A DNA stretch of 59,484 nucleotides from Methylococcaceae bacterium (lineage in GTDB: Bacteria > Patescibacteriota > Microgenomatia > UBA1400 > PJMF01): assembly GCA_044370175.1 (NCBI GenBank), contig JBILVZ010000004.1, positions 1-59,484 on the forward strand. Direction: 5' to 3'. The position numbers and the translations under genes are program-made. Positions 5,142 to 30,597 of this stretch are shown piece after piece. The notes under the pieces are model-generated. The model was not told the DNA's origin. It ran no database searches and saw only the letters and a list, made by a program, of their open reading frames with translations. Numbering within the stretch: position 1 is the stretch's first letter; each line of letters starts with the position of its first letter.

Positions 5142-5160
5142 TGTAGCGTGTACTACTCCA

Positions 5161-5169: not shown

Positions 5170-5175
5170 ACAGCT

Positions 5176-5226: not shown

Positions 5227-5260
5227 GGGGTGATCTGTAGTGCCTAAACCGTAATTACAC

Positions 5261-5284
5261 TCCCCGCCTCAAGCGGGATTTTTT
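5261..5284 (+). terminator. Attenuator terminator upstream of hisS
   Basis: CCCGC-ctcaa-GCGGG hairpin followed by ATTTTTT; overlaps CCTCAAGCG (5267-5275), which is complementary to CGCTTGAGG (5220-5228). Confidence 0.8.
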
Positions 5285-5320
5285 GTAGTAAATTAAGTTA
5301 CAAATATGAAAGAAAACTAT

Positions 5321-7658: not shown

Positions 7659-7807
7659 TATTTCGATATGCCTGCCCACGGCAGGTATTTCCTCCAATAG
7701 AAAAAGGTTAGTATAACAGAAAAGCGTAAAAATAAGTAATAGATTGATGAGTGAATATATTAATCACTATGTTATGAATTGCTAGAATACTGTTTACTAC
7801 AAAAAAT

Positions 7808-9557: not shown

Positions 9558-9565
9558 AGTACCAG

Positions 9566-16415: not shown

Positions 16416-16607
16416 ATGGAGGGTATTATACCTGAAGATTGCCATAGGGCACTATGGCGTAGGTTCGGCTCCTAGTTGGGGAGCATTATGATAAGAATTA
16501 AATTTCTCGTAACCTTATCAAATACTATTTAGACAATTTTTCTTCATATAGGTTGTACAAAATATGTTTATATTCCCATTTTAATAGTAATAAATTGCAA
16601 GGCAAAT

Positions 16608-17348: not shown

Positions 17349-17393
17349 TAATTGTTAATTATATTAAATAGTGAAATTCAAAGCTAATTTTCC

Positions 17394-17723
17394 TTACTCC
17401 TCTTTCAGCAATTTCTTAAGCCTGGGTAAATCTTCTTGCACTACCTGCCAAACCAAATCTAGATCCACCTCATCATAATCATGAATCAACACATCTCGCA
17501 TACCTGCCATTTTTCTCCATGGAACTTCAGGAAACATTTGTTTGAATTTTTCTTCAAGCCTTTTTGTGGCCTCACCAATGATTTCTAACCTCCTGACTAT
17601 AGCATCTTGAAGTTGAGTATCGCGTAAAAAATCATCTTTACTTTCTATATCAACTAAATAGGCCTCAATAAGATCAATTGAATTACGGATATCTTCTAGA
17701 TAAGGATTAGGTACTTTGTTCAT
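17394..17723 (-). CDS. HEPN/DUF86 RNase toxin (HepT-like)
   Basis: [29 protein letters not shown] (Rx4HxY); 4-nt overlap with the MNT gene. Confidence 0.92.
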
Positions 17724-18010
17724 ATTCTATAAAAAACACTTTCATCGCTAAGAATATACAATCTCAGTGACGGTTTTATAGCTTTATATTGCACCAAGTC
17801 AACTTTTTTACCTAATGAATCTTCAAGATCCAACTTCAATCCTACAAAATCAAGCAAGCTGAGTTTTTTAGCACCTAGCTCTACAAGAATATCAATATCA
17901 CTATCTGAAGTTTGCTCACTTCTGGCATAAGAACCAAAAAGAGCAGCTTTCTTTACCCCGTAGGAAGCAAGAATATCTTTTGTTTTATCAGCAATATTCT
18001 GTATGTTCAT
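17720..18010 (-). CDS. Minimal nucleotidyltransferase antitoxin (MntA-like)
   Basis: [20 protein letters not shown] (GSx10DxD). Confidence 0.92.
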
Positions 18011-18064
18011 GTTTTAGATTATAGCAAATCGCTGAATTCTAATTCATCATGCAACTTATATTAG

Positions 18065-18340
18065 CTACTGCACAATCCGAACTTGCAATTTTCCTTCTGT
18101 TGCCTTGGCAATTTTTTCCAAAAAATCTATAGAAGGATTTGTGTTCCCTGACTCCAAACGGGCAATAGCGGATTGTTTTGTACCAACTTTTTTAGCTAAA
18201 TCTTCCTGACTCATCTTCTTTTTCATACGAGCACCAATAATCTCAGAAATAATTTTATACCGAGGAGATAAACGCTCATATTCTTTACGAACGTCCTCAT
18301 TTTTTAGTAGTTTTTGCTTAAATTTTTCCCATTTTAACAT
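18065..18340 (-). CDS. XRE-family HTH antitoxin (HigA-like)
   Basis: MSQEDLAKKVGTKQSAIARLESG..NPSI; downstream of a RelE-like gene. Confidence 0.9.
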   Translation of the reverse strand: MLKWEKFKQKLLKNEDVRKEYERLSPRYKIISEIIGARMKKKMSQEDLAKKVGTKQSAIARLESGNTNPSIDFLEKIAKATEGKLQVRIVQ

Positions 18341-18366
18341 AATTTATGTTATAACATATATGTTAT
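18335..18366. promoter_or_regulatory. Tandem palindromic operators at the higA start
   Basis: TAACATAA-t-TTATGTTA (18335-18351) and perfect ATAACATATATGTTAT (18351-18366). Confidence 0.6.
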
Positions 18367-18731
18367 ATTTCTTCAAGACGATTGATGGCCATCTTCAATT
18401 CCTTAGTTGGAATTTTTTGAGTTTTCTTTGTAAATCCATGCAAAATGTAAATCGTCAATTTTCTAATCGTGAAAAACAGCCGCACTTCTTCTCTTCCTCT
18501 TACTCGTAACTCACTAAGTTGAGGTGATATTCTCCTGACATATGGCATTTGAACTGCTGGCCCATATTCTTGTAACAAATCAAAACCTTCAGCTATCCCT
18601 TTCAGCTCCTCATCCTCAGCTTCAAAGTATTGGGTTGCTTCCTCTGCATTCACCCATTTATATTCTGAGTGGTCAGTAGGATCTAGTTGTGGTTCTGGAG
18701 AATCAGGTTTTAGCGTACACAAAAAGATCAC
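18363..18731 (-). CDS. RelE/HigB (Gp49-like) toxin with atypical NUDIX-like N-terminus
   Basis: C-terminal LLQEYG..MPYVR..LSELRVRG..ILHGFTKKTQKIP; N-terminal IFLC..DHSEYKWV. Confidence 0.75.
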   Translation of the reverse strand: MIFLCTLKPDSPEPQLDPTDHSEYKWVNAEEATQYFEAEDEELKGIAEGFDLLQEYGPAVQMPYVRRISPQLSELRVRGREEVRLFFTIRKLTIYILHGFTKKTQKIPTKELKMAINRLEEI

Positions 18732-19555
18732 TTCTGCTGTGGCACATCTGCTTTTGGTCCCATCACCTGAATCTGAGGATTTACTCTAAAAAACGCTCTA
18801 TCCTTACCTTCCACTTTTTCTACTTTTATTTGAATAATCAAGCCATAGTTGATACCCACAGTATCAGCTGTAAGATGACTATAAAATGCATTTCCTACAA
18901 TTCTCAGGCTATTCAATACTCCTCCACCGGCCTGTGCGGTTACTTTTCTACCTACTTTCCGCAAAATCTCTTCAGCAGTCAGCCACGTACCCGCAGCTTC
19001 ACTATAATTAACCAGCAGAGCTTTTACGTACTGTTTTTGTAGTGGGTTGATAGTACCCTCGACTGTATCGATATGAAGCACCGAATCATTTTTGCCCCGC
19101 GGCGAAAAGTATACCCGCACCTGATCTTTATAAGGATTATGTACAGCAATGCCACCACCTCGTATTGACTCAAAACTCAAGCCAGGGATATCTAGTTGCT
19201 GTAATTTTGGCACGAGAACATTTAATATATTTCTGACATTGAAATTAGAACCAAATGCATTCGTAAAGACTTTTGAATACTTAATTGCATAGTCAGCAAA
19301 TACCCAATGACCCCATAAATCAGTGTTTGATATCACGGAGTTATTTGGATACATCAACAATAACATCCGAAGCGCACAAATTTCTGCAGGCTCAAACTCC
19401 GTGATTGTGCGACCATCGATGAGCATTGCAGGACGATCACCTGAAAAATCAAATAGTACGGTATGGGATAGTTGTTCTTCTTGTGCTAGCTGCTGTTTAT
19501 AGGGTTCTTCAGCGTGAAAGTTTGCGTAAGTTTGGATTATTTCTTTTTCTTTCAT
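18728..19555 (-). CDS. Putative tandem winged-helix (OmpR/PhoB C-terminal-like) protein
   Basis: EICALRMLL..PNNSVISNTDLW..FESIRGGGI resembles trans_reg_C; weaker second copy; no receiver domain. Confidence 0.5.
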   Translation of the reverse strand: MKEKEIIQTYANFHAEEPYKQQLAQEEQLSHTVLFDFSGDRPAMLIDGRTITEFEPAEICALRMLLLMYPNNSVISNTDLWGHWVFADYAIKYSKVFTNAFGSNFNVRNILNVLVPKLQQLDIPGLSFESIRGGGIAVHNPYKDQVRVYFSPRGKNDSVLHIDTVEGTINPLQKQYVKALLVNYSEAAGTWLTAEEILRKVGRKVTAQAGGGVLNSLRIVGNAFYSHLTADTVGINYGLIIQIKVEKVEGKDRAFFRVNPQIQVMGPKADVPQQK

Positions 19556-19705
19556 ATGAAAGTAATTCTACACCCTCAGATGCTCTCCACTCACTTGCCC
19601 TGTATACCAAATCACCTATACACTACCAGCACCCATAAGCGGCTACTAGTAATAGATAACATCTTAATTTGAAAAACCTACCGCTTGAGATAGAATATAC
19701 ACAAT

Positions 19706-20569
19706 ATGGCAACAGAAAATTCTAGAAACTTCTTGGGGAGATTATTTGGGAATCGAACTTCTGCACCACCTGAAGCTGCCCCACCACCTCCTGTTGATGA
19801 ACGGACACAGTATCTCACTGAAGCCATAACACTTCGTGATGCTTTAAAAGTGCATATTATTGATATGAATGCAGGTTGGACAAAAATAATTGATATGAGA
19901 TCTCCGACTCCAATAGAGATGACCGCGCGACATTTCTATTTTATTCAAAATGCTGATGGCAGGTATACCCCCACAGACGACCAACAGCTTGATCAACTCC
20001 GCCTGACTACTACTGTTACTATCTTCTCTGAAAGCTCTGCTCCCAATAATCAACTGTTTGGACTTAGCCGTACGCATACGCTTCGTCAAGATGACCCGCT
20101 GCAGTTAACATCAATGCGCACGGACAAGCCCAGCCCACAAGCTCTAAAGGATGCAAAGACGCACACTAATTTAAGACTGGCAGATCGGCATCAAGTAGAG
20201 TTTGACCAAGGAGTTCAGCACCAACGAATTGATATTCTAGCTAGAGCCACTGCTCAAGGAAATTTTATCTTGGAAATCACACTTGCTGATACTACTTCGC
20301 AAGTCGTTTTTCTACTGGGCAATACTACTGCAACTCTAAAATCAGCTGCTACTTTTGCAGATTTGAGTGATTATTATGTTCGAGGCACTGAAGGACAAAA
20401 GACAACAACAGACGAAGTCGAAATAGCAGAGTTATTAAAAGCGCACTGGGGCATACATTTAGACCAGTTACGGAAACTTGATGCTCGCCTCGTCCTTAAT
20501 CGAATGCTGGCAGCTGATCCGCAGAATCCCAACGTCACTGCAAAAGAGATCCTAAGTACAGGTGCGTAG
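19706..20569 (+). CDS. Hypothetical protein
   Basis: 287-aa ORF, TAGAAT 9 nt upstream, Pro-rich N-terminus. Confidence 0.65.
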   Translation: MATENSRNFLGRLFGNRTSAPPEAAPPPPVDERTQYLTEAITLRDALKVHIIDMNAGWTKIIDMRSPTPIEMTARHFYFIQNADGRYTPTDDQQLDQLRLTTTVTIFSESSAPNNQLFGLSRTHTLRQDDPLQLTSMRTDKPSPQALKDAKTHTNLRLADRHQVEFDQGVQHQRIDILARATAQGNFILEITLADTTSQVVFLLGNTTATLKSAATFADLSDYYVRGTEGQKTTTDEVEIAELLKAHWGIHLDQLRKLDARLVLNRMLAADPQNPNVTAKEILSTGA

Positions 20570-20592: not shown

Positions 20593-21174
20593 TTACTTCT
20601 TCGCCATCTCACCTTCAACGATATGAGCAGCAGGAGCTGGATCTCCGTCATCTGGTTCAATCGTTAAGACATACTGTGTGTAACTAGTAAAATCTTGAGC
20701 AGCAGTATACCGATTGGTGTACACCCCATTCACTCGCTCAAGTTTGCCAGTACTTATAAACTTGAAGGGCCGCTTCTGAACAACCCAACCTTCGTAAAAG
20801 TCACCATTGAGCGGTTCTGGCAGGTTCTCGACTGTAGCAAGCAGCTGGTAGGTACCCTCTCTGAAATCTGCCATAGCAGAGCCCTGAGCCGTACCATTAG
20901 TTGTTATGCCACGCACCACACCTCTGGTGACATCTTTGAGTGACCCTTGATAGGTATAGGTCAGCTGATTGGTTTCAGGTTGCGCAGTACCGATAGCACC
21001 ATCTTGTTGCAGATCGGTAGTGCTTGGAATGGCTGTAGCAATTGGATTTGCCACAGCTGCTAGTGGTGTCGGAGCCACAACCATTGGGGCATTAGAAGGC
21101 AAAAACTGTAGATACCAGAATCCCACACCCGCCAGCAGCAAAAATGCTACAGTCATCGTTATTTTCATGTTCAT
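20593..21174 (-). CDS. Membrane-anchored protein with RskA-like C-terminal domain
   Basis: N-terminal hydrophobic helix; YEGWVV..FISTG..VLTIEPDDGDPAP. Confidence 0.6.
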   Translation of the reverse strand: MNMKITMTVAFLLLAGVGFWYLQFLPSNAPMVVAPTPLAAVANPIATAIPSTTDLQQDGAIGTAQPETNQLTYTYQGSLKDVTRGVVRGITTNGTAQGSAMADFREGTYQLLATVENLPEPLNGDFYEGWVVQKRPFKFISTGKLERVNGVYTNRYTAAQDFTSYTQYVLTIEPDDGDPAPAAHIVEGEMAKK

Positions 21175-21452
21175 ACTGCACTTCCTTCAGAGTTTTTCTT
21201 TTTCCACCGTGGCGCAAAGCCAGCCATAAAAGCGAATGCCCATGCTTTTATCCTACTCTCCCCGCGCGCCACAATAGCATCAATCATCGCTGCACGAAAA
21301 CCAGCTAAGTCATCACCAGGATAACAAAGTTTGCCATCAGCAAAGCAATACGAACAATACTTTTCACTCTCGCGTGCTGCTCCTTTGGGATCTTTGGCAA
21401 ATGGCATGAGGCAACTTTCACAGTTGCCAGAAAGTGTGTGTTGTTTAGACAC
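21171..21452 (-). CDS. Zinc-ribbon domain protein
   Basis: CESCLMP..ESEKYCSYCFADG. Confidence 0.75.
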   Translation of the reverse strand: MSKQHTLSGNCESCLMPFAKDPKGAARESEKYCSYCFADGKLCYPGDDLAGFRAAMIDAIVARGESRIKAWAFAFMAGFAPRWKKKNSEGSAV

Positions 21453-22318
21453 TAGGTTCCTTTCTCCACGTACTTCTTAAAGTTTTCAAGGATTGCCTGC
21501 CAGCCAGTTTGCTGCAACTCGCGTGAGTTCTCTGATTCAGCTTGAAAAGCTACGGCGACCTGCACGTGAGGACCAGCTGGAGAAAACGAGACTATCACTT
21601 TACGGCCATCATCAAGAGTGTATTTTAGGAGCTCATGCGGCTTTACAGCAGTGTAGCTACCCGTGAAATCAAACTGTGCACTCTTATCTTTGGCGGCCAT
21701 CACCGTCTTAAACCGTCCGCCAACGCGCAAATCATTTTCTGCTGCAGGTGCTTCCCAGTTGTCACTGGCAAACGCCCAGTTGGTGATATGTTCTGGCTTG
21801 GTGTAGTACTCCCAGACTTTTTCGAGCGGGGCTGTGATGAGCGTTGATGTATCAATCCATGAACTCTTCCCTGTCTCGACTACTTCTTTGAGACGCTCCA
21901 GCGCTCTGGGCCACATGTCCATAAACATGTCATAAAATGCGTCTGGTGCGTCCATGTCGAGAATGAACTCTGTGCCTGTAGGCGTTGCTTTGAAAGTATA
22001 GTTCTCAAATGATGGTGTCCACTCTTTGACTGCTGGACTGGTAGTATCTACCACACCATTGGTGATCATCCCCAAATGCTTGATGGAAATAAACCCGTGT
22101 TTACGCACCTCAGCAATCATGCTAAACATTCCATCCCTGGCTTCAGTGTTACTGGGACCCAAAAACCGCATCTCCGCTCCCTGCTCCCACTTGCCTTCGA
22201 AGGTAGAGCCCGGCATAAAGGCAGCCGTCCACTGTTCATAGAGTTCTTTGGTAACTACCGCGTTCCAGACCTTTTGGACTGGTGCGTTGATACTAGTGGA
22301 AAGGTGCAGTTTCTTCAT
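21452..22318 (-). CDS. Tandem SRPBCC/AHSA1-like domain protein
   Basis: Two repeats beginning INAPVQKVW and ITAPLEKVW; C-terminal GWQAILENFKKYVE. Confidence 0.85.
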   Translation of the reverse strand: MKKLHLSTSINAPVQKVWNAVVTKELYEQWTAAFMPGSTFEGKWEQGAEMRFLGPSNTEARDGMFSMIAEVRKHGFISIKHLGMITNGVVDTTSPAVKEWTPSFENYTFKATPTGTEFILDMDAPDAFYDMFMDMWPRALERLKEVVETGKSSWIDTSTLITAPLEKVWEYYTKPEHITNWAFASDNWEAPAAENDLRVGGRFKTVMAAKDKSAQFDFTGSYTAVKPHELLKYTLDDGRKVIVSFSPAGPHVQVAVAFQAESENSRELQQTGWQAILENFKKYVEKGT

Positions 22319-22340
22319 AGGTCTGATTGTAGCAGAAAGC

Positions 22341-23723
22341 TCAAGTTTTTTTGCCTTGCACTCTCCGCTGACGTGATGCGTTGCGCGCAGTACGTATAGC
22401 TGCATCAAGAGGTTTTTGGTGCTTTTCTAAGAGCTGATCAACTAACGGTCTCCCATCAACATATTTCTTTTTAGATCGAGTGGTTTCAGGAGGGCCAAGC
22501 GGTTTGCCAGCATTTCGACTTCTTCTCTCACGGGTTGCAGCACGAGCTTTTTCTAAGGCCGCTTGCAAACCACTGTCTGGAGTTATTACTTCAGGTGCCG
22601 TTTCTTGAGAGGCTACTTCACCAGCTATTTTTGTAACTGCCAAAACTGCTGGATGCAGACCTTTCAGGTTACGCGGCACGTTCTGTGTTTGAGTAGATTC
22701 CTCTTCTACAGTGTTTACTTGTCGCGTAGCTTTTAAAGCGCCGATTGCTCGCTCGATACTTTGTTCACCAGTGTGGGCAAACTCTAAGTAGGTTCTCAAT
22801 AAAATCTCGTTGTTTTCAATAACGGTGGTTGCTCGGTGTGCAATTAGTTTGAGGCCACCCACGTTACCAGCATATGAAATAACTACGTTACTTTCCTTGA
22901 GAAGCTTGAAGTACTGTCGCAAAATATTAAGTGGTTGCTGCATCCCCACCAAACTAGGTTCTAGGGTATTTGGAGCCTGACCATCTTCGGTATCTAGCTC
23001 AGTTGCAGTCACTGTTTTACTTGGATTATAGGGAACATACAAAATCTGTAGCGCCTCACTCTCTAAGGCTGACTGATCTTGCAACCAAGTTTCTAACAGT
23101 GTCTGCAAGGTATTGGTAATTTTTTGATGATAACTGGGAAAGTCAGCGGACTGGTTGAGCATAAGTAGGGTAACAGCCAGTTGCAGCGAATATGTTTCAC
23201 ACCTTGATTTGATGGTACTGGCCACTATCTCTGGGGAGTATGATATGTTCGCTTGTGTGTCCAGTGCTGCATCTTGGCTCACTCCCTCAAGATCATAAAA
23301 ATCAACACTATTTTGTGCTAGACCACGGTGCAGCAGTTTACTTCGTTTATCTAAAATTAAATTTTTAACTGCAACAGAAAAGAGCGCAAAGAGGTTTACT
23401 GTAAGAGGTTTTCCGAACTGTATACATTTACTTATTGCTTCTAAGAGCAAGGCATCAGGATCAATGGTAATACCATCTTCATCGGTGTCGCCATTTTGTT
23501 TTAAGAGCTGTACAGTGATGGCCAACAACTTACTTTGAAAAACTCTATTCAGATTTTCAAAAGTGGCGGTGTCTAGTTTGTTGACTCTCTGATCAGTAAA
23601 TAAAGCATAGGCATCGGTAAAAACAAGCCCTTGAGTCTGAAGCGTAAATTCCTGAAAAAGGCGCATGGCCTGTTCTTCATTTTCTCGAAGAAAATTTGTA
23701 TTTTGTGCGTTTTCGTACACCAT
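22341..23723 (-). CDS. Hypothetical protein with basic C-terminal tail
   Basis: 460-aa ORF; no motif. Confidence 0.65.
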   Translation of the reverse strand: MVYENAQNTNFLRENEEQAMRLFQEFTLQTQGLVFTDAYALFTDQRVNKLDTATFENLNRVFQSKLLAITVQLLKQNGDTDEDGITIDPDALLLEAISKCIQFGKPLTVNLFALFSVAVKNLILDKRSKLLHRGLAQNSVDFYDLEGVSQDAALDTQANISYSPEIVASTIKSRCETYSLQLAVTLLMLNQSADFPSYHQKITNTLQTLLETWLQDQSALESEALQILYVPYNPSKTVTATELDTEDGQAPNTLEPSLVGMQQPLNILRQYFKLLKESNVVISYAGNVGGLKLIAHRATTVIENNEILLRTYLEFAHTGEQSIERAIGALKATRQVNTVEEESTQTQNVPRNLKGLHPAVLAVTKIAGEVASQETAPEVITPDSGLQAALEKARAATRERRSRNAGKPLGPPETTRSKKKYVDGRPLVDQLLEKHQKPLDAAIRTARNASRQRRVQGKKT

Positions 23724-23753
23724 AACCGTGTTTATTTACCACACCCGATACTA

Positions 23754-24878
23754 TTATTTTTCTCGCTCTACAACCAGTTTAAGTACAGCCAACAGCAGCC
23801 CCTCTGCACTTTCATGGAGCGAGCTTTTTGCAAGCATACGTTCAACTTTCTCTACACGCTGCTGCATTTTTTCTGTAAGTTCACGAGTACAGGCGGAGTC
23901 TCTCAGCTGCTCTACCACTTCCTGTACTTCTGAAAGTGTCGCGTGAGGATTAGCAAAAACTCGCTCCACCAACTGTTTATCTTGACCAGCCAACGTATGC
24001 CAGGCATACCAATACCATAACGTTTTTTTACCCTCACGGACATCACTCACTATATTTTTTCCCGTTTTTTCTGGATGGCCAAAGAGTCCCAAATAATCAT
24101 CTCTCCACTGATACAGCAAGCCAATCTCATCACCAATTTTCAACAACTGTGCTTGTTCCTCACTGCTTCGCTCTGCCAGCGCTGCTGCCAAAAGCAGCGG
24201 CCAACGGCCAGTATAGCGGCCAGTCTTGCCATACTGCATTTCGATAATTTCTTCTTGGGTAACCGCTGCAATTGGGAGACTTGCCTGGCGCATATCTTCC
24301 GTCTGAGCCAATCCCAAACAGGCTAACTCATGTGAAGAAATCTGCATAATCCGTCGCGCCACTGCGTCTGAAACAGAAGCAGTGTTTAGACACTGCATCC
24401 CCAAGAAAAAAAGCACGTCTCCAAAACAAATTGCAACACTCTCTCCAAAATGAGTAGCATTAGGAAGCTCAGCTTCTGTCGCCCAGTCTGTCACTGCGGT
24501 GTGTGTCGTCAGTAAACCGCGGCGACGGACATCCTGATCCATAATATCATCGTGCACGAGCAACCCTGAACAAATTAATTCCAACCCTGCTGCCACTTGG
24601 ACAGCGGCACTGTACTGTGTTTGCGTGAGCTCTCGACCAGTCAAGGCCTGCTGCATCTCCACAAGCAGACAGCCACGAAACAACTTGCCACTTGTTGCGT
24701 ATTCTTTCATCTGCCAATAAAACTCTCGAGCTAGCGGAAAGTGACCATCAGTAACATAGAATGTTTCCAGTACACGCTCTATCTCGGCTGCAATAGCTGT
24801 TCTTGAACGAAACAACTGTGTTTTTACAAGTGCAGGATCAGCCATCTGGTGGATTTGTGTATGTTGTGTATCTGTCAT
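23754..24878 (-). CDS. crtE: Polyprenyl (GGPP) synthase
   Basis: GKLFRG, LVHDDIMDQDVRRRG (first Asp-rich motif), KTGRYT, QWRDDYLG..GK..SDVREGK; next to crtB. Confidence 0.85.
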   Translation of the reverse strand: MTDTQHTQIHQMADPALVKTQLFRSRTAIAAEIERVLETFYVTDGHFPLAREFYWQMKEYATSGKLFRGCLLVEMQQALTGRELTQTQYSAAVQVAAGLELICSGLLVHDDIMDQDVRRRGLLTTHTAVTDWATEAELPNATHFGESVAICFGDVLFFLGMQCLNTASVSDAVARRIMQISSHELACLGLAQTEDMRQASLPIAAVTQEEIIEMQYGKTGRYTGRWPLLLAAALAERSSEEQAQLLKIGDEIGLLYQWRDDYLGLFGHPEKTGKNIVSDVREGKKTLWYWYAWHTLAGQDKQLVERVFANPHATLSEVQEVVEQLRDSACTRELTEKMQQRVEKVERMLAKSSLHESAEGLLLAVLKLVVEREK

Positions 24879-24897
24879 TTGTCTTTCTCACTCCATT

Positions 24898-25758
24898 CTA
24901 CTCCACAATTGCAATGAACCAGTTTTCAAGTATAGACAGTAAAACTCGTGCCTTACTGGGTTTAACTTTTTTGGTATATACACTATATGGATTTTTTGCA
25001 ATTGTTTGGATCGTCCACTCATACATTTTGGTAGCTGTCGCCACTGGGATGCGGATTGGCACTTTCAAAAAAGCAAAACCCACCATGGCGCTAGCATTCC
25101 AACTTCTATACCGTCTTTCCTCGGCTGCATATAAATGCCTAAACCCCACCCCATCACGCTCTGTACTCGCTTCAGAAAGATCTGACAAACCATGCTGTTC
25201 TACAATTTCTTGTGGGATGTACTGTCTACCAAGTGTTAGATCCTCTGCAATGTCACGCAAAAAATTGGCATACTGCATTGCTCTACCAAGCATTCGGGCA
25301 GTAGGATACGCACGACTATCCAAGCCAACACAAGCACAGATCATCAGTCCCACTACTTCTGCTGAACCATACATGTAGCTCTGCAGCTCTTGCATTGTGT
25401 AATACGTAGTTTTATACAGATCCAACTCCATTGCCAAGAAAAACGCATCTACCCAAACTTGTTTAATTCCAACTGTCTGCTGTAGTAGTACAAAATTGGA
25501 AATGATTATCTGTGTTTGAACAGGGAGTAAAGCCTCCGTTGTACTATTGCCGCTCTTTACACAGTGGTAGTATGCATCGCGAAACGCATAGAACCCTGTA
25601 CTATCTTGAGGCATACGATCTATATAGTCATCAGCTGTACGAACAAACGCATACAATGTAAAGATTTTTTCTTTGATTGGGGTTGGAAAAAACAAACTAC
25701 TCGTAAAGTAGGTTGTGCTGGCTGATTTAAAAATATTGGTTGTCTCTGCTGAAGGCAT
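24898..25758 (-). CDS. crtB: Phytoene synthase
   Basis: LYAFVRTADDYID, YMYGSAEVVGLM, NFLRDIAED. Confidence 0.92.
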   Translation of the reverse strand: MPSAETTNIFKSASTTYFTSSLFFPTPIKEKIFTLYAFVRTADDYIDRMPQDSTGFYAFRDAYYHCVKSGNSTTEALLPVQTQIIISNFVLLQQTVGIKQVWVDAFFLAMELDLYKTTYYTMQELQSYMYGSAEVVGLMICACVGLDSRAYPTARMLGRAMQYANFLRDIAEDLTLGRQYIPQEIVEQHGLSDLSEASTERDGVGFRHLYAAEERRYRSWNASAMVGFAFLKVPIRIPVATATKMYEWTIQTIAKNPYSVYTKKVKPSKARVLLSILENWFIAIVE

Positions 25759-25837
25759 ACCGATCGTTAGTATACAAGAGAGAACATCTCTTTGCTTCCA
25801 TGAAAAATCTATTTGTACCTTACAATAAACTGTAGCT

Positions 25838-26695
25838 ATGTCGGTATTTAAAATTTCTCGACCACGGTTTTATAGTTATTTGTTTGGTCCATTTTTGATT
25901 GGCGGTGCTGCTGCTTTTGCGTATCCACTCGAAATTACTAGCCTAAATTTTTTACTCTTTTTATTATATTTTACAATTCCTGCCAATATATTTTTGTATG
26001 GAGTGAATGACATCTTTGACACCGAAACAGACGCCAATAACCCAAAAAAACATTCTCACGAACATTTACTGCAGCTGCGCGAACGAAAGCCGTTAGTCCT
26101 AACAGTAACGAGCATAGCAATCTTGAGTCTTGTGGCTTTGCTATTTGTCAACACGATTGCTGCTGCCATGCTGAGTATCTTTTTATTTTTATCCTTCAGC
26201 TACAGTGCCCCACCGTTGCGGTTTAAAGCTCGGCCATTTCTAGATGCCTACTCCAACGTTTTATATGCCTTTCCAGGATTTTTTGCCTATGCACTCTTGG
26301 GTGGTCAGCTACCCACACTACCAGTTATTTTGATGGGGCTTACTTGGAGCGCGGGTATGCATGCTTTTTCAGCAATACCAGACATGACTGTAGACAAAAA
26401 AGCAGGGATCGCTACCACTGCTGTATTTTTAGGTAAACAAAAAACCTTGCTCTTTATCCTTGCCAACTGGTTGGTGTTTTCACTGCTGTGTTTGTATTAC
26501 TTTGGCGTCCTGGGCAGCTTAGGGTGGATTCCCTTTGGCATTGCCTTGTACATTTTACTTGCCCACAAAAAAACTGAAGACTTTTACTGGTACTTTCCCT
26601 ACAGTATCCCTGCTTTAGGATTCTTAGCATTTTGGTACATCTTACTTTCGCGATTTGGTTGGACACAACTATGGCAAAGCAGCGGCCTTTTGTAA
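25838..26695 (+). CDS. UbiA-family prenyltransferase, lycopene elongase (LyeJ/CrtEb-like)
   Basis: SRPRF..PANIFLYGVNDIFD..D..NPKK, YSAPPLRFK.RPFLD..SN, MHAFSAIPD..DKKAGIATTA; multi-TM; crt context. Confidence 0.82.
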   Translation: MSVFKISRPRFYSYLFGPFLIGGAAAFAYPLEITSLNFLLFLLYFTIPANIFLYGVNDIFDTETDANNPKKHSHEHLLQLRERKPLVLTVTSIAILSLVALLFVNTIAAAMLSIFLFLSFSYSAPPLRFKARPFLDAYSNVLYAFPGFFAYALLGGQLPTLPVILMGLTWSAGMHAFSAIPDMTVDKKAGIATTAVFLGKQKTLLFILANWLVFSLLCLYYFGVLGSLGWIPFGIALYILLAHKKTEDFYWYFPYSIPALGFLAFWYILLSRFGWTQLWQSSGLL

Positions 26696-27477
26696 ACAAT
26701 ACTGCCATCTGCGTGATTATTCCCACCCTCAATGAAGAGCGGTTCATTGGAAAGCTGCTCGCAGATGTATATACCCAAACAAGACGACCTGATCAAGTTT
26801 TAATTGTCGATGGACACTCTACAGACAAAACTAAAGCTGTTGTCGAAATTTGGGCAAAACAGTGGAGTGCGGTTCAGTTCCTCAAGTGCCCCACTCGCGG
26901 TGTGGGTGCACAGCGTGATTTTGGCGGCACGTATATGTGTGACCGTGCGAGGAAACAAAAATCTGATCCTCGCGAAGCTACCTTGCTCTATTTTTTTGAT
27001 GCAGATGTCCGACTCCCCCGATATTTTTTGAAAAAATCGAGTGAGATACTACATAGAGAGGCGTTTGATGCTGCCTGTCCACAGTATGTGCCAAGTACCA
27101 ACTCACTCACGCTCCTACAAGCAGCCCCAGTCAAGGTACTGTTTGCCTTTCTCAACTTTTTGTTTTGGTTTGGACAAAAATACTTTCCAGCTGGAGCGGG
27201 GCCGTGCATAATTGTCACTGCGCAACATTTTAAGAAACTGGGTGGCTTCACTACTTCACTTTTGGTCGATGATCTGGACTTTGTACACCGTGCAGGAAGT
27301 ACTGGGAGGTTTACCCTGTTGGATCTCCCCGTTTTTGTCTCCACTCGGCGCTTTGCACAGTATGGCGTCTGGCAAACATTCTGGCAGTACGTACAAATCA
27401 GCTGGTACTTTGTGCGTAAAAATACACATAGCACCAACAAACTAAAATATGAGTTTGGCAACTTCAAAAGAGTCTAA
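26671..27477 (+). CDS. GT2 glycosyltransferase (candidate carotenoid glycosyltransferase)
   Basis: VIIPTLNEE, IVDGHSTDKT, FFDAD, STRRF; overlaps the elongase stop. Confidence 0.85.
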   Translation: MAKQRPFVNNTAICVIIPTLNEERFIGKLLADVYTQTRRPDQVLIVDGHSTDKTKAVVEIWAKQWSAVQFLKCPTRGVGAQRDFGGTYMCDRARKQKSDPREATLLYFFDADVRLPRYFLKKSSEILHREAFDAACPQYVPSTNSLTLLQAAPVKVLFAFLNFLFWFGQKYFPAGAGPCIIVTAQHFKKLGGFTTSLLVDDLDFVHRAGSTGRFTLLDLPVFVSTRRFAQYGVWQTFWQYVQISWYFVRKNTHSTNKLKYEFGNFKRV

Positions 27478-27502
27478 GTAAAGTACTTGCAACAATTTAA
27501 AA

Positions 27503-29023
27503 CTAGCTTTTCATTGTCTGCACCCGATCACGCACCAAGTGTCCTGATATCACCGCTGAAGGCACGCCAATGCCAGGTACTGTGCCTGCGCCACTGAAGA
27601 ATAGATTACTGATTTTTTTGTGTTTGTTGGGTGGGCGGAATGGCCCCGTTTGCATCAGTGTATGTGCCACACCACCCAGCGCATTACCTGCATAACTGTT
27701 GTACGTACTCTCAAAGTCTGTAACAGAAAATATTGATTTATAGACAATTTTTTCTTTTAGCTTAATCCCTGCCTTTTTTTCTAAGTACTGCAAAATATAC
27801 TCGCCATATTTTTCTTTAGACGCTGCATCTTCAGCCAATCCACAGGCCACCGGCACCAGAATCATCACCGCGTGATGCCCTTTTGGCGCAACTGCAGGAT
27901 CGGTCATCGATGGTACATTCAGGTATATTGATGGCTCTTTTGGCCAACTTGGCTGCTCAAAGATTTCTGTAAAATGCTCAATCCAGTTTTTGCCAAAGAA
28001 GATGTTGTGATGCTGTAGCGCTCTCACATCTCCTTTTACGCCCAAGTACATCAGAAATGCTGAGGGAGCAAAGGTACGTTTTTGCCAATATTTTTCTGAG
28101 TACATTTTTAAATGAGCGTCATCAAGGAGGCTCTCAATATGCGCCATATCAGCATTGGCCACTACTGCTTTCGTCTTGATTATTCCGTCTTTTGTCCGCA
28201 CGCCAGTCACCTTGCCGTCACGCGTTTTAATTTCTAAAACTGGTGTTTCTAGACGGTACTCCGCTCCGTTCTCTCTCCCAACCTGCTCAAATGCCTTAAC
28301 CACCTGCGACATGCCGCCCATCGGATAAAAGGTATGCATCGTAAAATCAACATGCGAAATCAAACTATAGAGCGCTGGCATATTGTGTGGAGCGCCACCT
28401 AAAAATACCAACGTAAACTGAATAATTTGCTGCAATTTTTCGCTCTTAAAAAACTCTGCTACATACTTTTGCATGGAGTCAAATGGACGCAGCATCCGCC
28501 CATTTTTTAACAGATCCCAGCTAAAAAAATCAAAAATTGAGTCCACGTTTTTATAGAGAACTGTCCGCACCGACAACTCATATTTAGCCCGTGCTTCATC
28601 CAAATAATCTTGTAGCCGCTTGCCAGCACCTTTCTCTATTTTTTCAAAAAGCGCCTTGTTGTGCTCCAAGTTTGGCTTCATATCCACATGGGTCTTGTCG
28701 GGGAAAATGATGCGGTACTGTGGATCCAACTTCACCAGCTGCAAATAATCAGCAGGTTTTTTACCAAACTCAGCAAAAAACTTTTCAAAAACATCAGGCA
28801 TCATGTACCATGACGGGCCCATATCAAACTGAAAACCTTGTGCTTTTAAAACATTAGCTCGACCACCGAGTAGTTTATTTTTCTCAAGCACCACTACTTT
28901 TTTACCATCTTTTGCCAATAAAGCCGCCGCAGCCAATCCACCAAAACCACCACCGATTACCACAACGTCATAGGCCATTGTCTTTTTTTTCTGAGTTTTC
29001 GTTTTTTGCTGTATTCTTGGCAT
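27503..29023 (-). CDS. crtI: Phytoene desaturase family (CrtI/CrtD)
   Basis: VVIGGGFGGL, FDMGPSWYMMP, YPMGGM, HTLMQTGPFRP, PGIGVP; alternative start 28978. Confidence 0.9.
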   Translation of the reverse strand: MPRIQQKTKTQKKKTMAYDVVVIGGGFGGLAAAALLAKDGKKVVVLEKNKLLGGRANVLKAQGFQFDMGPSWYMMPDVFEKFFAEFGKKPADYLQLVKLDPQYRIIFPDKTHVDMKPNLEHNKALFEKIEKGAGKRLQDYLDEARAKYELSVRTVLYKNVDSIFDFFSWDLLKNGRMLRPFDSMQKYVAEFFKSEKLQQIIQFTLVFLGGAPHNMPALYSLISHVDFTMHTFYPMGGMSQVVKAFEQVGRENGAEYRLETPVLEIKTRDGKVTGVRTKDGIIKTKAVVANADMAHIESLLDDAHLKMYSEKYWQKRTFAPSAFLMYLGVKGDVRALQHHNIFFGKNWIEHFTEIFEQPSWPKEPSIYLNVPSMTDPAVAPKGHHAVMILVPVACGLAEDAASKEKYGEYILQYLEKKAGIKLKEKIVYKSIFSVTDFESTYNSYAGNALGGVAHTLMQTGPFRPPNKHKKISNLFFSGAGTVPGIGVPSAVISGHLVRDRVQTMKS

Positions 29024-29079
29024 ATAGTTTTTCCGCTTGGTGCACCGCTACTCTAGCATTCATCGCATAAAAAAACAAT

Positions 29080-30597
29080 TTACAGAGTAGGATATGAGAT
29101 TTCGTTTTGATGTTTCCCAATATCAATCGGATACTCGCCAGTAAAAGCAGAAGTCATCAAACTTTCTTTTGGCACGCCAATTGCCCTGACCATCCCCTCG
29201 ACACTGAGATAGTACACCCCATCGGCACCAATATGCGCTGCAATTTCTGCTGGAGATTTGTGCGCAGCTATCAAGTCTTTTTGTTGTGGTGTAGCAATGC
29301 CATAAAAATCAGGAAACTTCACGGGCGGTGAAGCAACTAAAACAGATACTTTGCGCGCCCCTGCTTCTTTTAGCTTTTTAATGAGTGGGATGAGTGTTGT
29401 GCCACGAACAATTGAATCATCAATCAATACTATATCTTTGCCTGCCAACTGGTCTTCTACCGGATTTAACTTGAATGTCTGAGCCAACTCACGCAGCTCC
29501 TGTGATGGCTGAATAAAGGTACGATGCACATACCGACTTTTTACGAGTCCAGCGCAGTATGGCACACCACTAGCTTGCGCATACTGTTCAGCTGCTTGAT
29601 TAGCGCTGTCAGGGACTGGGACAACAATATCGGCTCTGATCTGATGTTCATTCCAGAGCTCTTGACCAAAGTTCCTTCTAATTTGATAGATACTCCGTTT
29701 TACTTCGCTTCCGTCTGGCAAAGTAGCGGTAAACATACTGTCAGGGCGTCCAAAGTATACTAGTTCAAAAGCATCCAACTGTTCAGGAGTGACAGCAACC
29801 TGGTGTGACTGTATACCAGCTCCATCAATAACCATTACCTCCCCCGGTCTGATAGATCGCAGTAATCTACCCTTTGAGTTCCAGGCACAACTCTCAGAAG
29901 CTAGTGCGAACCCACCTTCTGTCATTTCTCCGAGCACAAGAGGTCGGATGCCATGGGGGCCACGCACTCCAATCAATTGATCTTTCCAGACAATCACCAG
30001 TGAAAATGCCCCAATCCAAAAGGGCCAGCATAGCTTGATGGCTGCCACGATATCTTGTGTTTCTTGCAAGAAGTACCACAACAGTGCAGACATCAACATG
30101 GTGTCGTTTTTACCACATATATCCACATTCTTTTCAAGCAAAAAGCGCACCATTGGCTCGGGATTAGAAATATTGCCGTTTAAAGCAACTGCTAGCTCAT
30201 TTTTGGTTGTTTTACCAAGCCTATTTCTTCTTCCCTCAGAAGTTGGCTGTGCAAACGCCTGGGTATTGACCTTTGACGTGGTATAGCGATTATGGCCTAT
30301 CCCAAAGTGACCGCGTAATCGAGCGAGTTTTTGGGGAGTATAGACCTGTGAAACAAGCCCGAGATCTTTAGTGACTCGTACTGCATGTTTACCATCAGAT
30401 GTGGCAATGCCAGAGGCGTCTTGCCCCCGGTGCTGTAGATTAAATAGTGCAAAATAAATTAGGAACGCGGCCTGCTGTTCTGGTGGTAGGTAAAGGCCAA
30501 AAACCGCACATTCTTCTTGCGGTTTATCTTTACCCTCAAGATCATCACGCTTATATGCTACAGGTACTGTAGCGGCAATACGCTTTTCAAGAAGCAT
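29080..30597 (-). CDS. purF: Amidophosphoribosyltransferase
   Basis: EECAVFG (N-terminal Cys after propeptide), LQHRGQD, HNRYTT, LIDDSIVRGTT. Confidence 0.94.
   Translation of the reverse strand: MLLEKRIAATVPVAYKRDDLEGKDKPQEECAVFGLYLPPEQQAAFLIYFALFNLQHRGQDASGIATSDGKHAVRVTKDLGLVSQVYTPQKLARLRGHFGIGHNRYTTSKVNTQAFAQPTSEGRRNRLGKTTKNELAVALNGNISNPEPMVRFLLEKNVDICGKNDTMLMSALLWYFLQETQDIVAAIKLCWPFWIGAFSLVIVWKDQLIGVRGPHGIRPLVLGEMTEGGFALASESCAWNSKGRLLRSIRPGEVMVIDGAGIQSHQVAVTPEQLDAFELVYFGRPDSMFTATLPDGSEVKRSIYQIRRNFGQELWNEHQIRADIVVPVPDSANQAAEQYAQASGVPYCAGLVKSRYVHRTFIQPSQELRELAQTFKLNPVEDQLAGKDIVLIDDSIVRGTTLIPLIKKLKEAGARKVSVLVASPPVKFPDFYGIATPQQKDLIAAHKSPAEIAAHIGADGVYYLSVEGMVRAIGVPKESLMTSAFTGEYPIDIGKHQNEISYPTL

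What the first reader, a model, noticed from the sequence alone, without database searches (positions are those of the whole stretch)
23754..29023. Carotenoid cluster predicting a glycosylated acyclic C50 carotenoid in a probable CPR bacterium
Seen: five adjacent genes - GGPP synthase, crtB, a UbiA prenyltransferase with LyeJ/CrtEb motifs, an overlapping GT2 and crtI - with divergent transcription between crtB and the elongase. No cyclase, CruF or second desaturase is in the window. Established: LyeJ (haloarchaea) and CrtEb (Actinobacteria) add C5 units to lycopene to give hydroxylated C45/C50 carotenoids; CPR generally lack fatty-acid synthesis; some Microgenomates encode a mevalonate pathway. 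Inference: the product is an acyclic C50 diol, probably glycosylated. A diglycoside would be a membrane-spanning bola-amphiphile and possibly one of few lipids this cell makes itself.
Basis: partly seen in the sequence, partly recalled or inferred. Interest (0 to 1): 0.82.

Follow-up and report, generated by a model that had tools for sequence, protein, structure and literature searches.

The report
C50 carotenoid cluster with its own glycosyltransferase
A tiny-genome lake bacterium of the Patescibacteria carries an intact five-gene set for a long (C50) bacterioruberin-type pigment in which the usual last enzyme is replaced by a sugar-adding enzyme, although the cell has no known pathway for making the five-carbon building blocks.

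Summary
Five intact, adjacent genes lie at 23754-29023: a polyprenyl diphosphate synthase and CrtB on the minus strand, then a UbiA and an overlapping GT2 on the plus strand across a 79-bp divergent spacer, then a convergent CrtI.

The UbiA is LyeJ-type, not CrtEb-type or quinone-type. The single desaturase matches the haloarchaeal bifunctional CrtI/CrtD model. The 99%-complete, 1.22-Mb genome is Patescibacteria and shows no CruF, cyclase or second desaturase.

The GT2 belongs to a distinct clade found only next to LyeJ-type genes. Among 85 loci with enough flanking sequence, the slot beside LyeJ holds this GT2 in 12, CruF in 47, and both in none.

The most likely product is bisanhydrobacterioruberin (an acyclic C50 diol), glycosylated on its C-1 hydroxyls. 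This is inferred, not shown.

Two qualifications apply. First, lyeJ/crtD/cruF genes in Patescibacteria are already published (2023). Second, the genome lacks the mevalonate and MEP pathways and fatty-acid synthesis, but has an IDI / isopentenyl-phosphate kinase / UppS operon, so the pigment would be built from salvaged C5 units.

Verdict: a new variant of a known kind, of moderate interest.

The parts
23754..24878 (-). Short-chain trans-polyprenyl diphosphate synthase (candidate FPP/GGPP synthase). It is the only one in the genome.
   Evidence: Pfam PF00348, 150.3 bits. No NCBIfam equivalog is over its cut-off; the best are NF041169 at 156 bits and GGPP_syn at 101 bits. It is the only PF00348 match in G000. 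Chain length was not determined.
24898..25758 (-). Phytoene synthase CrtB (SQS_PSY family), assigned by context.
   Evidence: PF00494, 164.8 bits. No NCBIfam CrtB, HpnD or HpnC model is over its cut-off. Homologues lie beside LyeJ-type genes in 70 of 85 loci.
25759..25837 (.). 79-bp divergent intergenic spacer between crtB and the elongase gene.
   Evidence: The promoter-consensus scan of 23500-29300 was not above chance: 9 sites found against 10.1 +/- 3.2 expected. No promoter is claimed.
25838..26695 (+). LyeJ-type lycopene elongase/1,2-hydratase (UbiA superfamily).
   Evidence: NF009516 268.2 bits (cut-off 205). Haloarcula and Halopiger orthologues score 413-448 bits on the same model, while cyclase-linked CPR UbiAs score best on NF009608. 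Both Asp-rich motifs are invariant: N57-D58-x2-D61-x3-D65 and D182-x3-D186. In the trees it lies inside the LyeJ-like family and outside the CrtEb-like clade.
26671..27477 (+). GT2 glycosyltransferase of a LyeJ-linked clade; candidate C50-carotenoid glycosyltransferase. An alternative TTG start lies at 26632.
   Evidence: PF00535, 57 bits. The DXD motif (D110-A-D112), D201 and the S224-x-R226-R227-F228 motif are invariant in 13 clade members. The AF2 model has pLDDT 89.8 and a GT-A fold. Clade support is 100/99 against 21 other Patescibacterial GT2s. The gene overlaps the end of the UbiA gene by 25 nt.
27503..29023 (-). Phytoene desaturase of the bifunctional CrtI/CrtD (3,4-desaturase) type.
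   Evidence: NF058655 'CrtID' 648.9 bits (cut-off 640) and TIGR02734 480.6 bits. LyeJ-linked desaturases elsewhere score 593-762 on NF058655; CrtEb-linked ones score 514-562, below the cut-off. It is the only CrtI-family gene in the genome.

Best explanation
This is a working operon pair for a bacterioruberin-type C50 carotenoid that ends in a glycoside instead of bacterioruberin. The proposed route has five steps.

1. The genome's only trans-prenyl synthase makes GGPP. It probably also makes the FPP that UppS needs.
2. CrtB joins two GGPP to give phytoene.
3. The single CrtI/CrtD-type desaturase makes lycopene.
4. The LyeJ-type UbiA enzyme adds a C5 unit from DMAPP at C-2 and water at C-1, at each end. 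The same desaturase introduces the 3,4 double bonds. The product is bisanhydrobacterioruberin, an acyclic C50 diol with tertiary C-1/C-1' hydroxyls.
5. There is no CruF, so the pathway does not go on to bacterioruberin. Instead the translationally coupled GT2 transfers a sugar from an NDP-sugar to those hydroxyls, giving mono- or diglycosides with polar ends that can span the membrane.

The C5 units are not made de novo. They are probably salvaged as isopentenyl phosphate or IPP through the IPK-IDI operon on contig C27.

Shown: gene content, family membership, intact motifs, synteny, and the failure to find CruF, a cyclase, MVA, MEP or FAS. Inferred: every chemical step, the acceptor of the GT2, the sugar, and the membrane role.
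For: - LyeJ-type assignment: NF009516 268 bits over the cut-off of 205; the rival models NF009608 (112) and NF010119 (146) are under theirs.
- Desaturase: just over the cut-off of the CrtI/CrtD equivalog. That model separates LyeJ-linked from CrtEb-linked desaturases. The dual activity was shown genetically in Haloarcula japonica (PMC11946383, abstract read).
- The genome holds one CrtI-family gene and no CruF.
- GT2 ranking: the four best matches to the GT2 in 401 Patescibacteria genomes are exactly the four that sit beside a LyeJ-type gene.
- GT2 tree: the 7 crt-linked GT2s form one clade, 100/99, apart from 21 others.
- Own order: 7 of 13 fetched LyeJ loci have the GT2 right after UbiA and 4 have CruF there. 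One (G557) has the window's exact divergent layout with CruF in the GT2's place.
- Overall: of 85 loci with at least 1.5 kb on both sides, GT2 12, CruF 47, both 0, neither 26.
- Whole-genome CruF check of 5 other GT2-type genomes: not found in 4.
- Armatimonadota loci read UbiA-GT2-NUDIX(IDI-like), and a GT2-NUDIX fusion protein exists.
- The cluster is kept in 5 of 6 genomes of the genus.
- Five sugar nucleotidyltransferase genes could supply donors.
- ESM Atlas lead only: the nearest clusters carry the automatic name 'diaponeurosporenoate glycosyltransferase'.
Against: - No product, transcript or enzyme activity was seen. No RNA run was available.
- The desaturase clears its cut-off by only 9 bits.
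- CrtB and the prenyl synthase pass no NCBIfam equivalog cut-off and are assigned by context.
- The GT2 fold match is generic GT-A and says nothing about the acceptor. It does not match the CruG model (29.8 bits against 600).
- Related GT2s at 33-37% identity occur in Patescibacteria with no crt genes nearby.
- One GT2-type genome (G315) also has CruF on another contig.
- The GT2/CruF exclusivity cannot be shown with phylogenetic independence: only 2 independent pairs on supported branches, sign test p = 1.
- 26 of 85 loci have neither gene next to LyeJ.
- No MVA or MEP marker is present, so precursor supply rests on an untested salvage idea. Of the 14 LyeJ-carrying Patescibacteria in the phylum sample, only this genome has IPK.
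Confidence: 0.55

Rival explanations
1. The cluster makes the unglycosylated C50 diol (or C45 mono-elongated forms). The GT2 serves another isoprenoid-linked acceptor, such as a polyprenyl-phosphate sugar carrier or an envelope glycan, and merely shares the operon.
For: Close GT2 relatives (79-117 blastp bits) sit in non-carotenoid contexts in 20 fetched Patescibacterial loci. The best NCBIfam hit is a non-carotenoid family, TIGR04283, at 93.6 bits and under its cut-off. Structure matches are to generic polysaccharide and teichoic-acid GT2s. 26 of 85 LyeJ loci have neither the GT2 nor CruF beside them.
Against: The crt-linked GT2s are a separate, strongly supported clade. All 14 located members of it abut a LyeJ-type gene, across two phyla. 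The start codon overlaps the UbiA stop region. This GT2 and CruF never share a locus.
Confidence: 0.2
2. The pathway stops at, or mostly gives, less desaturated or singly elongated products (dihydro-bisanhydrobacterioruberin or C45 compounds), because the single desaturase lacks 3,4-desaturase activity.
For: The CrtID model is passed by only 9 bits (648.9 against 640). Bifunctionality has been shown only for the two Haloarcula enzymes (PMC11946383, abstract read).
Against: On the CrtID model the window's enzyme scores 168 bits above its score on the general crtI model. This is like other LyeJ-linked desaturases and unlike CrtEb-linked ones. Nearly all LyeJ loci carry just this one desaturase type next door.
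Confidence: 0.15
3. The cluster is a recently transferred, silent or decaying passenger, because the cell cannot make IPP/DMAPP.
For: No HMGR, GHMP kinase, IspG or IspH was found. Patescibacterial LyeJ sequences are polyphyletic, with at least 4 forced changes. The gene is patchy: 14 of 401 genomes in the phylum sample and 15 of 286 in the order.
Against: All five ORFs are intact and their catalytic motifs are kept. The cluster is conserved in 5 of 6 genomes of the genus at 38-79% protein identity, which means long retention under selection. GC content matches the surroundings. UppS, IDI and IPK are present, so the cell does use C5 diphosphates.
Confidence: 0.05
4. The UbiA enzyme is not a lycopene elongase. 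It prenylates a quinone, a chlorophyll-like compound or another acceptor.
For: No biochemical data exist for any bacterial member outside Actinobacteria. The nearest solved structure is a generic UbiA prenyltransferase (4tq3, E = 6e-9).
Against: Scores to every quinone, tocopherol and chlorophyll prenyltransferase model are at most 42 bits, against 268 for the LyeJ model. The gene is flanked by crtB and crtI here and in most relatives.
Confidence: 0.03

Closest known systems
Haloarchaeal bacterioruberin pathway: CrtD(C0507)-LyeJ-CruF of Haloarcula japonica / Halobacterium salinarum
   Same: The elongase is LyeJ-type (same NCBIfam equivalog). The adjacent desaturase is of the bifunctional CrtI/CrtD type. 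The UbiA is 40% and the CrtI 45% identical to those of Haloarcula loci. The C50 backbone is acyclic.
   Different: No CruF was found in the genome, so the tetra-ol bacterioruberin is not expected. A GT2 occupies the position after lyeJ. The host is a bacterium of 1.2 Mb with no MVA pathway, whereas haloarchaea make IPP by MVA.
lyeJ/crtD/cruF genes reported in Lake Baikal Patescibacteria (PMC9948471, 2023)
   Same: The phylum, the lake habitat and the LyeJ-type C50 pathway are the same, and the LyeJ trees are polyphyletic in both. Some Patescibacteria in my sample also carry CruF next to LyeJ (L042, L044, L057, L081, L125, L130).
   Different: In the passages I read, that paper describes the CruF (bacterioruberin) form, with the genes often unlinked, and does not mention a glycosyltransferase (0 occurrences of 'glycosyl'). 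Its supplementary figure S6 could not be seen. Here the genes form one tight cluster, with a GT2 and without CruF.
Actinobacterial C50 clusters: crtE-crtB-crtI-crtYe/Yf-crtEb plus crtX (Corynebacterium glutamicum, Micrococcus, Dietzia)
   Same: The logic is C40 to C50 elongation by a UbiA enzyme followed by glycosylation (PMC5401885 and PMC6669644, passages read).
   Different: That elongase is CrtEb-type, which the window's enzyme does not match (112 bits against a cut-off of 217). Those products are cyclised by CrtYe/Yf, which were not found here. The crtX sequence was not on hand for comparison. No member of the window's GT2 clade was found at E <= 1e-30 in 401 sampled Actinomycetes genomes, though only 7 candidates per genome were scored.
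Bacterioruberin mono- and diglycosides of Arthrobacter agilis
   Same: They are glycosylated acyclic C50 carotenoids and give a product-level precedent. Cold adaptation and membrane roles have been proposed for them (PMC10991996, passages read).
   Different: Those are glycosides of the tetra-ol bacterioruberin in an organism with CruF. The responsible gene is not identified in the passages I read. Here the predicted aglycone is the diol.
GT2-family carotenoid glycosyltransferases CruC, CruG and CrtQ (functions recalled, not from a call)
   Same: They share the GT2 family and GT-A fold. CruC is recalled to glycosylate a tertiary C-1' hydroxyl of an acyclic end group, which is the chemistry needed here. 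The nearest ESM Atlas clusters are auto-named after CrtQ (lead only).
   Different: There is no family-level match: CruG model 29.8 bits against 600, and no CrtQ or CruC model appeared at E <= 0.01. The window's protein is a short, soluble-type GT2 of about 240-270 aa in a clade of its own.

Membership tests
LyeJ lycopene elongase/hydratase (NCBIfam NF009516 / PRK12875) | Whole-protein score over the curated cut-off of the equivalog model, and higher than on sister models. | tested here: met
   268.2 bits against a cut-off of 205. NF010119 gives 146.1 (cut-off 248) and NF009608 gives 111.7 (cut-off 217). Named Haloarcula and Halopiger orthologues score 413-448 bits on the same model.
LyeJ lycopene elongase/hydratase (NCBIfam NF009516 / PRK12875) | The two Asp-rich motifs of the UbiA superfamily are intact. 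| tested here: met
   N57, D58, D61, D65 and D182, D186 are invariant in a 48-sequence alignment that includes the window's protein.
LyeJ lycopene elongase/hydratase (NCBIfam NF009516 / PRK12875) | Genomic linkage to a CrtI/CrtD desaturase and to phytoene synthase. | tested here: met
   Both are adjacent in the window. CrtI lies beside the LyeJ-type gene in 79 of 85 loci and CrtB in 70 of 85.
LyeJ lycopene elongase/hydratase (NCBIfam NF009516 / PRK12875) | Catalyses C5 addition at C-2 plus hydration at C-1 of lycopene. | not testable with these tools
   Needs heterologous expression and LC-MS.
Complete bacterioruberin pathway (LyeJ + CrtD + CruF) | Presence of the C50 carotenoid 2'',3''-hydratase CruF (PF04240). 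| tested here: not met
   No PF04240 match in the 99%-complete genome, while the control rang in Deinococcus, Haloferax and Methanosarcina. No tblastn match with 6 CruF queries.
CrtEb-type C50 pathway (NF009608 / PRK13105 with CrtYe/Yf cyclase) | Elongase over the NF009608 cut-off and adjacent small cyclase subunits. | tested here: not met
   111.7 bits against 217. No match to CrtYe/Yf-like subunits in the genome. Other Patescibacteria do have this type, at 273-380 bits and with PF18916 neighbours.
Bifunctional phytoene desaturase/3,4-desaturase CrtID (NF058655) | Score over the curated cut-off. | tested here: met
   648.9 bits against 640, a narrow margin. LyeJ-linked homologues score 593-762; CrtEb-linked ones score 514-562.
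Bifunctional phytoene desaturase/3,4-desaturase CrtID (NF058655) | Both activities reside in one enzyme. | not testable with these tools
   It is the only CrtI-family gene in the genome, so it must at least desaturate phytoene. The 3,4-desaturation is inferred from orthology.
GT2 glycosyltransferases (PF00535, GT-A fold, inverting) | Pfam match, DXD motif and GT-A fold. | tested here: met
   57 bits against a cut-off of 23.3. D110-A-D112 is invariant. The AF2 model has pLDDT 89.8, and the best PDB matches are GT2 enzymes at E about 1e-12 and TM about 0.58.
Known carotenoid glycosyltransferases (CruG, CruC, CrtQ; actinobacterial CrtX) | Family-level sequence match. | tested here: not met
   CruG model NF045692 gives 29.8 bits against 600, and no other carotenoid GT model appeared at E <= 0.01. 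CrtX could not be compared because no sequence was on hand. No clade member was found in 401 sampled Actinomycetes genomes (weak test).
Patescibacteria / CPR | Small genome, phylum placement, and reduced lipid and isoprenoid metabolism. | tested here: met
   The genome is 1.22 Mb and 99% complete. The 400 'same phylum' genomes are 0.6-2.1 Mb. Three of their contigs equal in length records titled Saccharibacteria, Patescibacteria group or 'bacterium'. The nearest named CysS relatives are Candidatus Pacebacteria and Patescibacteria group, both at 70%. No FabF/B, HMGR, GHMP kinase, IspG or IspH was found.

The most novel reading that the evidence does not exclude
The LyeJ-linked GT2 clade is the so far unidentified glycosyltransferase for acyclic C50 carotenoids. 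It acts on the tertiary C-1/C-1' hydroxyls of bisanhydrobacterioruberin as an evolutionary alternative to CruF hydration. In this fatty-acid-synthesis-free, MVA/MEP-free cell, the resulting bolaform diglycoside would be a self-assembled, membrane-spanning structural lipid built from C5 phosphates salvaged from a host or the water through an IDI-IPK route.
Probability: 0.3. Interest if true: 0.75.

Novelty: new variant of a known kind. Interest (0 to 1): 0.55.

Why it matters
- It names a concrete candidate gene, easy to test, for glycosylating acyclic C50 carotenoids. In the passages I read, the gene for bacterioruberin glycosides in Arthrobacter was not identified (PMC10991996).
- It points to two alternative ways of making the ends of the same C50 rod polar: CruF hydration or GT2 glycosylation. 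These are spread patchily across Patescibacteria, Armatimonadota and others.
- It sharpens a CPR puzzle. This cell has no fatty-acid, mevalonate or MEP pathway, yet it keeps a five-gene pigment pathway plus IDI, IPK and UppS. That implies import or salvage of C5 units and makes the question 'what do CPR membranes contain?' approachable by lipidomics for one defined compound class.

The core finding, a C50 carotenoid cluster in a CPR genome, is not new in itself.

Tried and rejected
- Rhodopsin: no PF01036 match in G000, and none over the cut-off in 14 LyeJ-carrying genomes. The control rang in no genome, so this shows nothing. Heliorhodopsin was not searched.
- Promoter and terminator scan of the cluster: not above shuffles.
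- Metagenome scans for close relatives: the first found none, the second found 2 distant loci.
- RNA evidence: no RNA holder was listed among 20 runs; all were DNA runs labelled lake water or freshwater.
- Link to actinobacterial CrtX: 0 of 401 sampled Actinomycetes genomes had a clade member at E <= 1e-30, but only 7 candidates per genome were scored and there was no positive control. The Friedmanniella genome had only N-terminal GT2 hits.
- Plasmid collection search with the GT2: 3 weak hits with no carotenoid context.
- PDB sequence searches: only remote hits.
- Flanking genes as cluster members, rejected: the 460-aa ORF at 22341-23723 has no Pfam hit and no homologue in 13 relatives' loci. 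The SRPBCC and Zn-ribbon genes lie 5.4 kb from the cluster in G562.
- The C23 ORF with a weak Lycopene_cycl hit is a DAO-family oxidoreductase.
- My first CruF tally wrongly scored Armatimonadota loci as CruF-positive, because one query was a CruF-NUDIX fusion. This was corrected.
- Phylogenetically independent test of GT2/CruF exclusivity: too few pairs.
- IPK does not track the carotenoid cluster. It is over the cut-off in 23 of 401 genomes, but among the 14 LyeJ carriers only G000 has it.
- The statement in PMC10991996 that GT-2 enzymes 'unique to C50 carotenoids' glycosylate bacterioruberin could not be traced. In the cited paper, 'GT2', 'GT-2' and 'bacterioruberin' occur 0 times.

Full report
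**1. What is in the sequence**

Five uninterrupted ORFs fill 23754-29023:
- A polyprenyl diphosphate synthase, 23754-24878(-).
- An SQS_PSY-family synthase, CrtB, 24898-25758(-).
- A UbiA-family prenyltransferase, 25838-26695(+).
- A GT2 glycosyltransferase, ATG at 26671 (or TTG at 26632) to 27477(+).
- A CrtI-family desaturase, 27503-29023(-).

Pfam supports each assignment. crtB and the UbiA gene diverge across 79 bp. The GT2 start lies 25 nt inside the end of the UbiA gene. GC content is the same as in the flanks. A consensus promoter and terminator scan was not above chance.

**2. The organism**

The window is contig C34 of a 1,224,482-bp assembly in 54 contigs, 99% complete with 0.18% contamination.
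- The 400 'same phylum' genomes drawn by the tool are 0.6-2.1 Mb.
- Three of their contigs have the same lengths as records titled 'Candidatus Saccharibacteria', 'Patescibacteria group bacterium' and 'bacterium'.
- The nearest named relatives of the window's CysS are a Candidatus Pacebacteria MAG and a 'Patescibacteria group bacterium', both at 70% identity. One hit is labelled Vitreimonas, probably a binning error.
- NCBI files the Pacebacteria entry under phylum Minisyncoccota, which I recall to be the formal name for the CPR/Patescibacteria.
- The cluster DNA is held by 20 DNA runs from 18 studies labelled lake water or freshwater. Five of these may be the source sample.

The CPR assignment stands.

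**3. The elongase**

On NCBIfam the UbiA protein scores 268.2 bits on NF009516 (cut-off 205). It scores 146.1 on NF010119 (cut-off 248), 111.7 on NF009608 (cut-off 217), and at most 41.9 on every quinone, tocopherol or chlorophyll prenyltransferase model.

I calibrated the models. The genes next to the desaturase in Haloarcula amylolytica and Halopiger score 413-448 bits on NF009516. Patescibacterial UbiA genes that sit beside two roughly 100-aa lycopene-cyclase-domain ORFs score 273-380 bits on NF009608. NF009516 is therefore the LyeJ type and NF009608 the CrtEb type, and the window's enzyme is LyeJ-type.

Further support:
- Both Asp-rich motifs are invariant.
- JGI's automatic name for two homologues at 43-45% identity is 'lycopene elongase/hydratase (dihydrobisanhydrobacterioruberin-forming)'.
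- In trees (quick method, weak backbone) the window's protein lies inside the LyeJ-like family. It groups with its genus, then with a Chloroflexota sequence and near Thermoproteota and the haloarchaeal clade. It lies outside the long-branch CrtEb-like clade.
- Patescibacterial sequences are polyphyletic, with at least 4 changes forced by supported branches.

**4. The desaturase**

It scores 648.9 bits on NF058655, 'bifunctional phytoene desaturase/3,4-desaturase' (cut-off 640), and 480.6 on the general crtI model. The model discriminates. LyeJ-linked desaturases score 740-762 in haloarchaea and 593-738 elsewhere. Desaturases of CrtEb/cyclase clusters score 514-562, no better than on the general model.

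The dual activity was shown by knock-out and complementation in Haloarcula japonica (PMC11946383, abstract and introduction read). G000 has only this one CrtI-family gene. The weak second hit is a DAO-family oxidoreductase.

**5. What is missing**

- CruF: no PF04240 match, with working controls, and no tblastn match.
- Cyclase: no CrtYe/Yf-type subunit. I did not run a PF05834 search.
- Rhodopsin: not found, but that search had no positive control.

**6. The GT2**

It has a GT-A fold (AF2 pLDDT 89.8). The best PDB matches are WrtF, PcManGT, TarS and SpsA, at TM about 0.58, which is generic. Conserved features in 13 clade members are IPTLNE, DGxSxD, the DXD motif, an xDD base region and VSxRRF. 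It passes no NCBIfam cut-off. The best is TIGR04283 at 93.6 bits against 182, and CruG gives 29.8 against 600.

Its context is the informative part:
- In 401 Patescibacteria genomes, the four best matches (104-131 bits) are exactly the four that abut a LyeJ-type gene. The next matches (94 bits and lower) lie in genomes without one.
- In a careful tree, the 7 crt-linked GT2s (window, 4 Patescibacteria, 2 Armatimonadota) form one clade with 100/99 support, apart from 21 other Patescibacterial GT2s.
- In the window's order, LyeJ is over the cut-off in 15 of 286 genomes. This count includes G000 and one genome, G544, that the tool flags as unpublished. I did not fetch G544, but the tallies include it.
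- In the genus, 5 of 6 genomes have LyeJ.
- Of the 13 loci I fetched, 7 have the GT2 directly after UbiA, 4 have CruF there, and 2 are uninformative or have neither. The 7 include all 4 of the same genus, with the window's layout; in one of these the contig ends before crtI.
- G557 has the window's divergent layout with CruF in the GT2's place.
- Of the 13 closest UbiA homologues in the protein database, 9 have a GT2-clade protein whose longest contig has the same length. This is a proxy for the same contig, not proof.

Pooling all LyeJ-type loci with at least 1.5 kb on each side gives n = 85. Before counting I dropped 3 duplicates, the 6 cyclase-linked loci, L051, and 20 loci with short flanks. 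The result is GT2 12, CruF 47, both 0, neither 26.

Caveats:
- Related genomes are not independent, and a paired test on the tree had too few pairs.
- G315 has CruF on another contig. CruF was not found in 4 of 5 other GT2-type genomes.
- The ESM Atlas's nearest clusters are auto-named 'diaponeurosporenoate glycosyltransferase'. This is a lead I could not test.

**7. Precursors**

G000 has none of the following, and all controls rang:
- HMG-CoA reductase.
- Any GHMP kinase.
- IspG.
- IspH.
- Ketoacyl synthase.

The cluster's prenyl synthase is the only one in the genome, so it probably also primes UppS.

Contig C27 carries a minus-strand run of four genes:
- IDI: NF002995 128.6 bits (cut-off 127).
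- A NUDIX-like ORF.
- Isopentenyl phosphate kinase: NF040647 164.7 bits (cut-off 120).
- UppS.

This suggests salvage of C5 phosphates.

Among the 14 LyeJ-carrying Patescibacteria of the phylum sample:
- IspH: 0 of 14.
- HMGR: 2 of 14.
- IDI-2: 0 of 14 over the cut-off.
- IPK: only G000.

Precursor supply is therefore unexplained in most of them. Published surveys agree that most freshwater CPR classes encode only C10-C20 isoprenoid steps and no fatty-acid synthesis (PMC9166423, passages read). Five sugar nucleotidyltransferases could supply donors for the GT2.

**8. Explanation**

The most likely route is: GGPP, then phytoene, then lycopene, then LyeJ elongation and hydration at both ends with 3,4-desaturation, giving bisanhydrobacterioruberin (the C50 diol), and finally glycosylation of the C-1 hydroxyls by the GT2. 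CruF-type loci would take the same intermediate to bacterioruberin instead.

Photoprotection or membrane stiffening in a lit, cold lake is plausible. Photolyase genes adjoin the cluster in four relatives, and a photolyase homologue exists in G000. This function is not tested.

**9. Literature**

Already in print (passages read unless stated otherwise):
- lyeJ/crtD/cruF in Patescibacteria (PMC9948471).
- The same pathway in Hikarchaeia (PMC13753752).
- Bacterioruberin glycosides in Arthrobacter (PMC10991996).
- crtX in actinobacterial C50 clusters (PMC5401885, PMC6669644).
- PMC3598387 (2012) states that the decaprenoxanthin glucosylation genes were then unknown.

I found no paper that links a GT2 gene to lyeJ or that names the glycosyltransferase for acyclic C50 carotenoids. 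The searches were made, and the library is limited to open-access papers and bioRxiv.

**10. Verdict**

This is a new variant (GT2 in place of CruF) of a known kind of cluster, in a phylum where the kind is already reported. The genome also poses a precursor-supply puzzle.

Noticed in passing
L156 (G000 contig C27) 5141-7789, minus strand: An operon-like run of four genes: IDI type 1 (7208-7789), a NUDIX-like ORF (6673-7206), isopentenyl phosphate kinase (5860-6663) and UppS (5141-5833). The genome has no mevalonate or MEP pathway markers, so this is a candidate C5-phosphate salvage route. IPK is over its cut-off in 23 of 401 Patescibacteria, mostly in the window's class.
   Followed up: partly
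L045-L050 (G364, G131, G263, G218, G383, G357): A second kind of C50 cluster occurs in other Patescibacteria. It has a CrtEb-type UbiA (273-380 bits on NF009608 for the two scanned) flanked by two ORFs of about 95-105 aa, one of which hits Lycopene_cyc PF18916, plus CrtI, CrtB and GGPPS. It looks like the actinobacterial type that makes cyclic C50 carotenoids.
   Followed up: partly
L038 (G090) 8727-10442: A single 571-aa open frame joins CrtB and the LyeJ-type UbiA. It may be a natural phytoene synthase-elongase fusion or a missed stop or frameshift.
   Followed up: no
L059:1650-2960; L079:6077-6589; L082:8473-9003; protein P0173: IDI-like NUDIX domains keep joining these clusters. Acidobacteria have a CruF-NUDIX fusion, Armatimonadota have the order UbiA-GT2-NUDIX, and a 422-aa GT2-NUDIX fusion protein is in the database.
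   Followed up: partly
L034:8206-9543 and homologues in L036, L058, L132; G000 contig C32:9642-10955: A DNA photolyase gene sits beside the carotenoid cluster in four relatives. The window's own genome has a homologue at 53% identity on another contig. This fits a light-exposed life.
   Followed up: partly
window 20593-22408: Downstream of the prenyl synthase, on the same strand, lie three genes: a tandem SRPBCC/AHSA1 lipid-binding-fold protein (21452-22408), a Zn-ribbon protein (21171-21452) and a protein with an RskA_C anti-sigma-like domain (20593-21174). In G562 the first two lie 5.4 kb from the cluster, so the linkage is loose.
   Followed up: partly
window 22341-23723: A 460-aa ORF lies directly after the prenyl synthase gene. 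It has no Pfam match and no homologue in 13 relatives' loci.
   Followed up: no
window 16000-20000: A low-GC stretch (0.38-0.39 against about 0.45) holds an HNH endonuclease gene (16608-17348) and ORFs without Pfam hits. It may be mobile DNA.
   Followed up: no
L040 (G355) 9-4457: A LyeJ-type gene is flanked by two CrtI-family paralogues (35-36% identical to the window's), and no CrtB was seen on the 14-kb contig.
   Followed up: no
L156 2635-5088: Two adjacent ORFs of about 380-430 aa have C-terminal T4SS_pilin domains, next to a SpoIID-domain protein.
   Followed up: no
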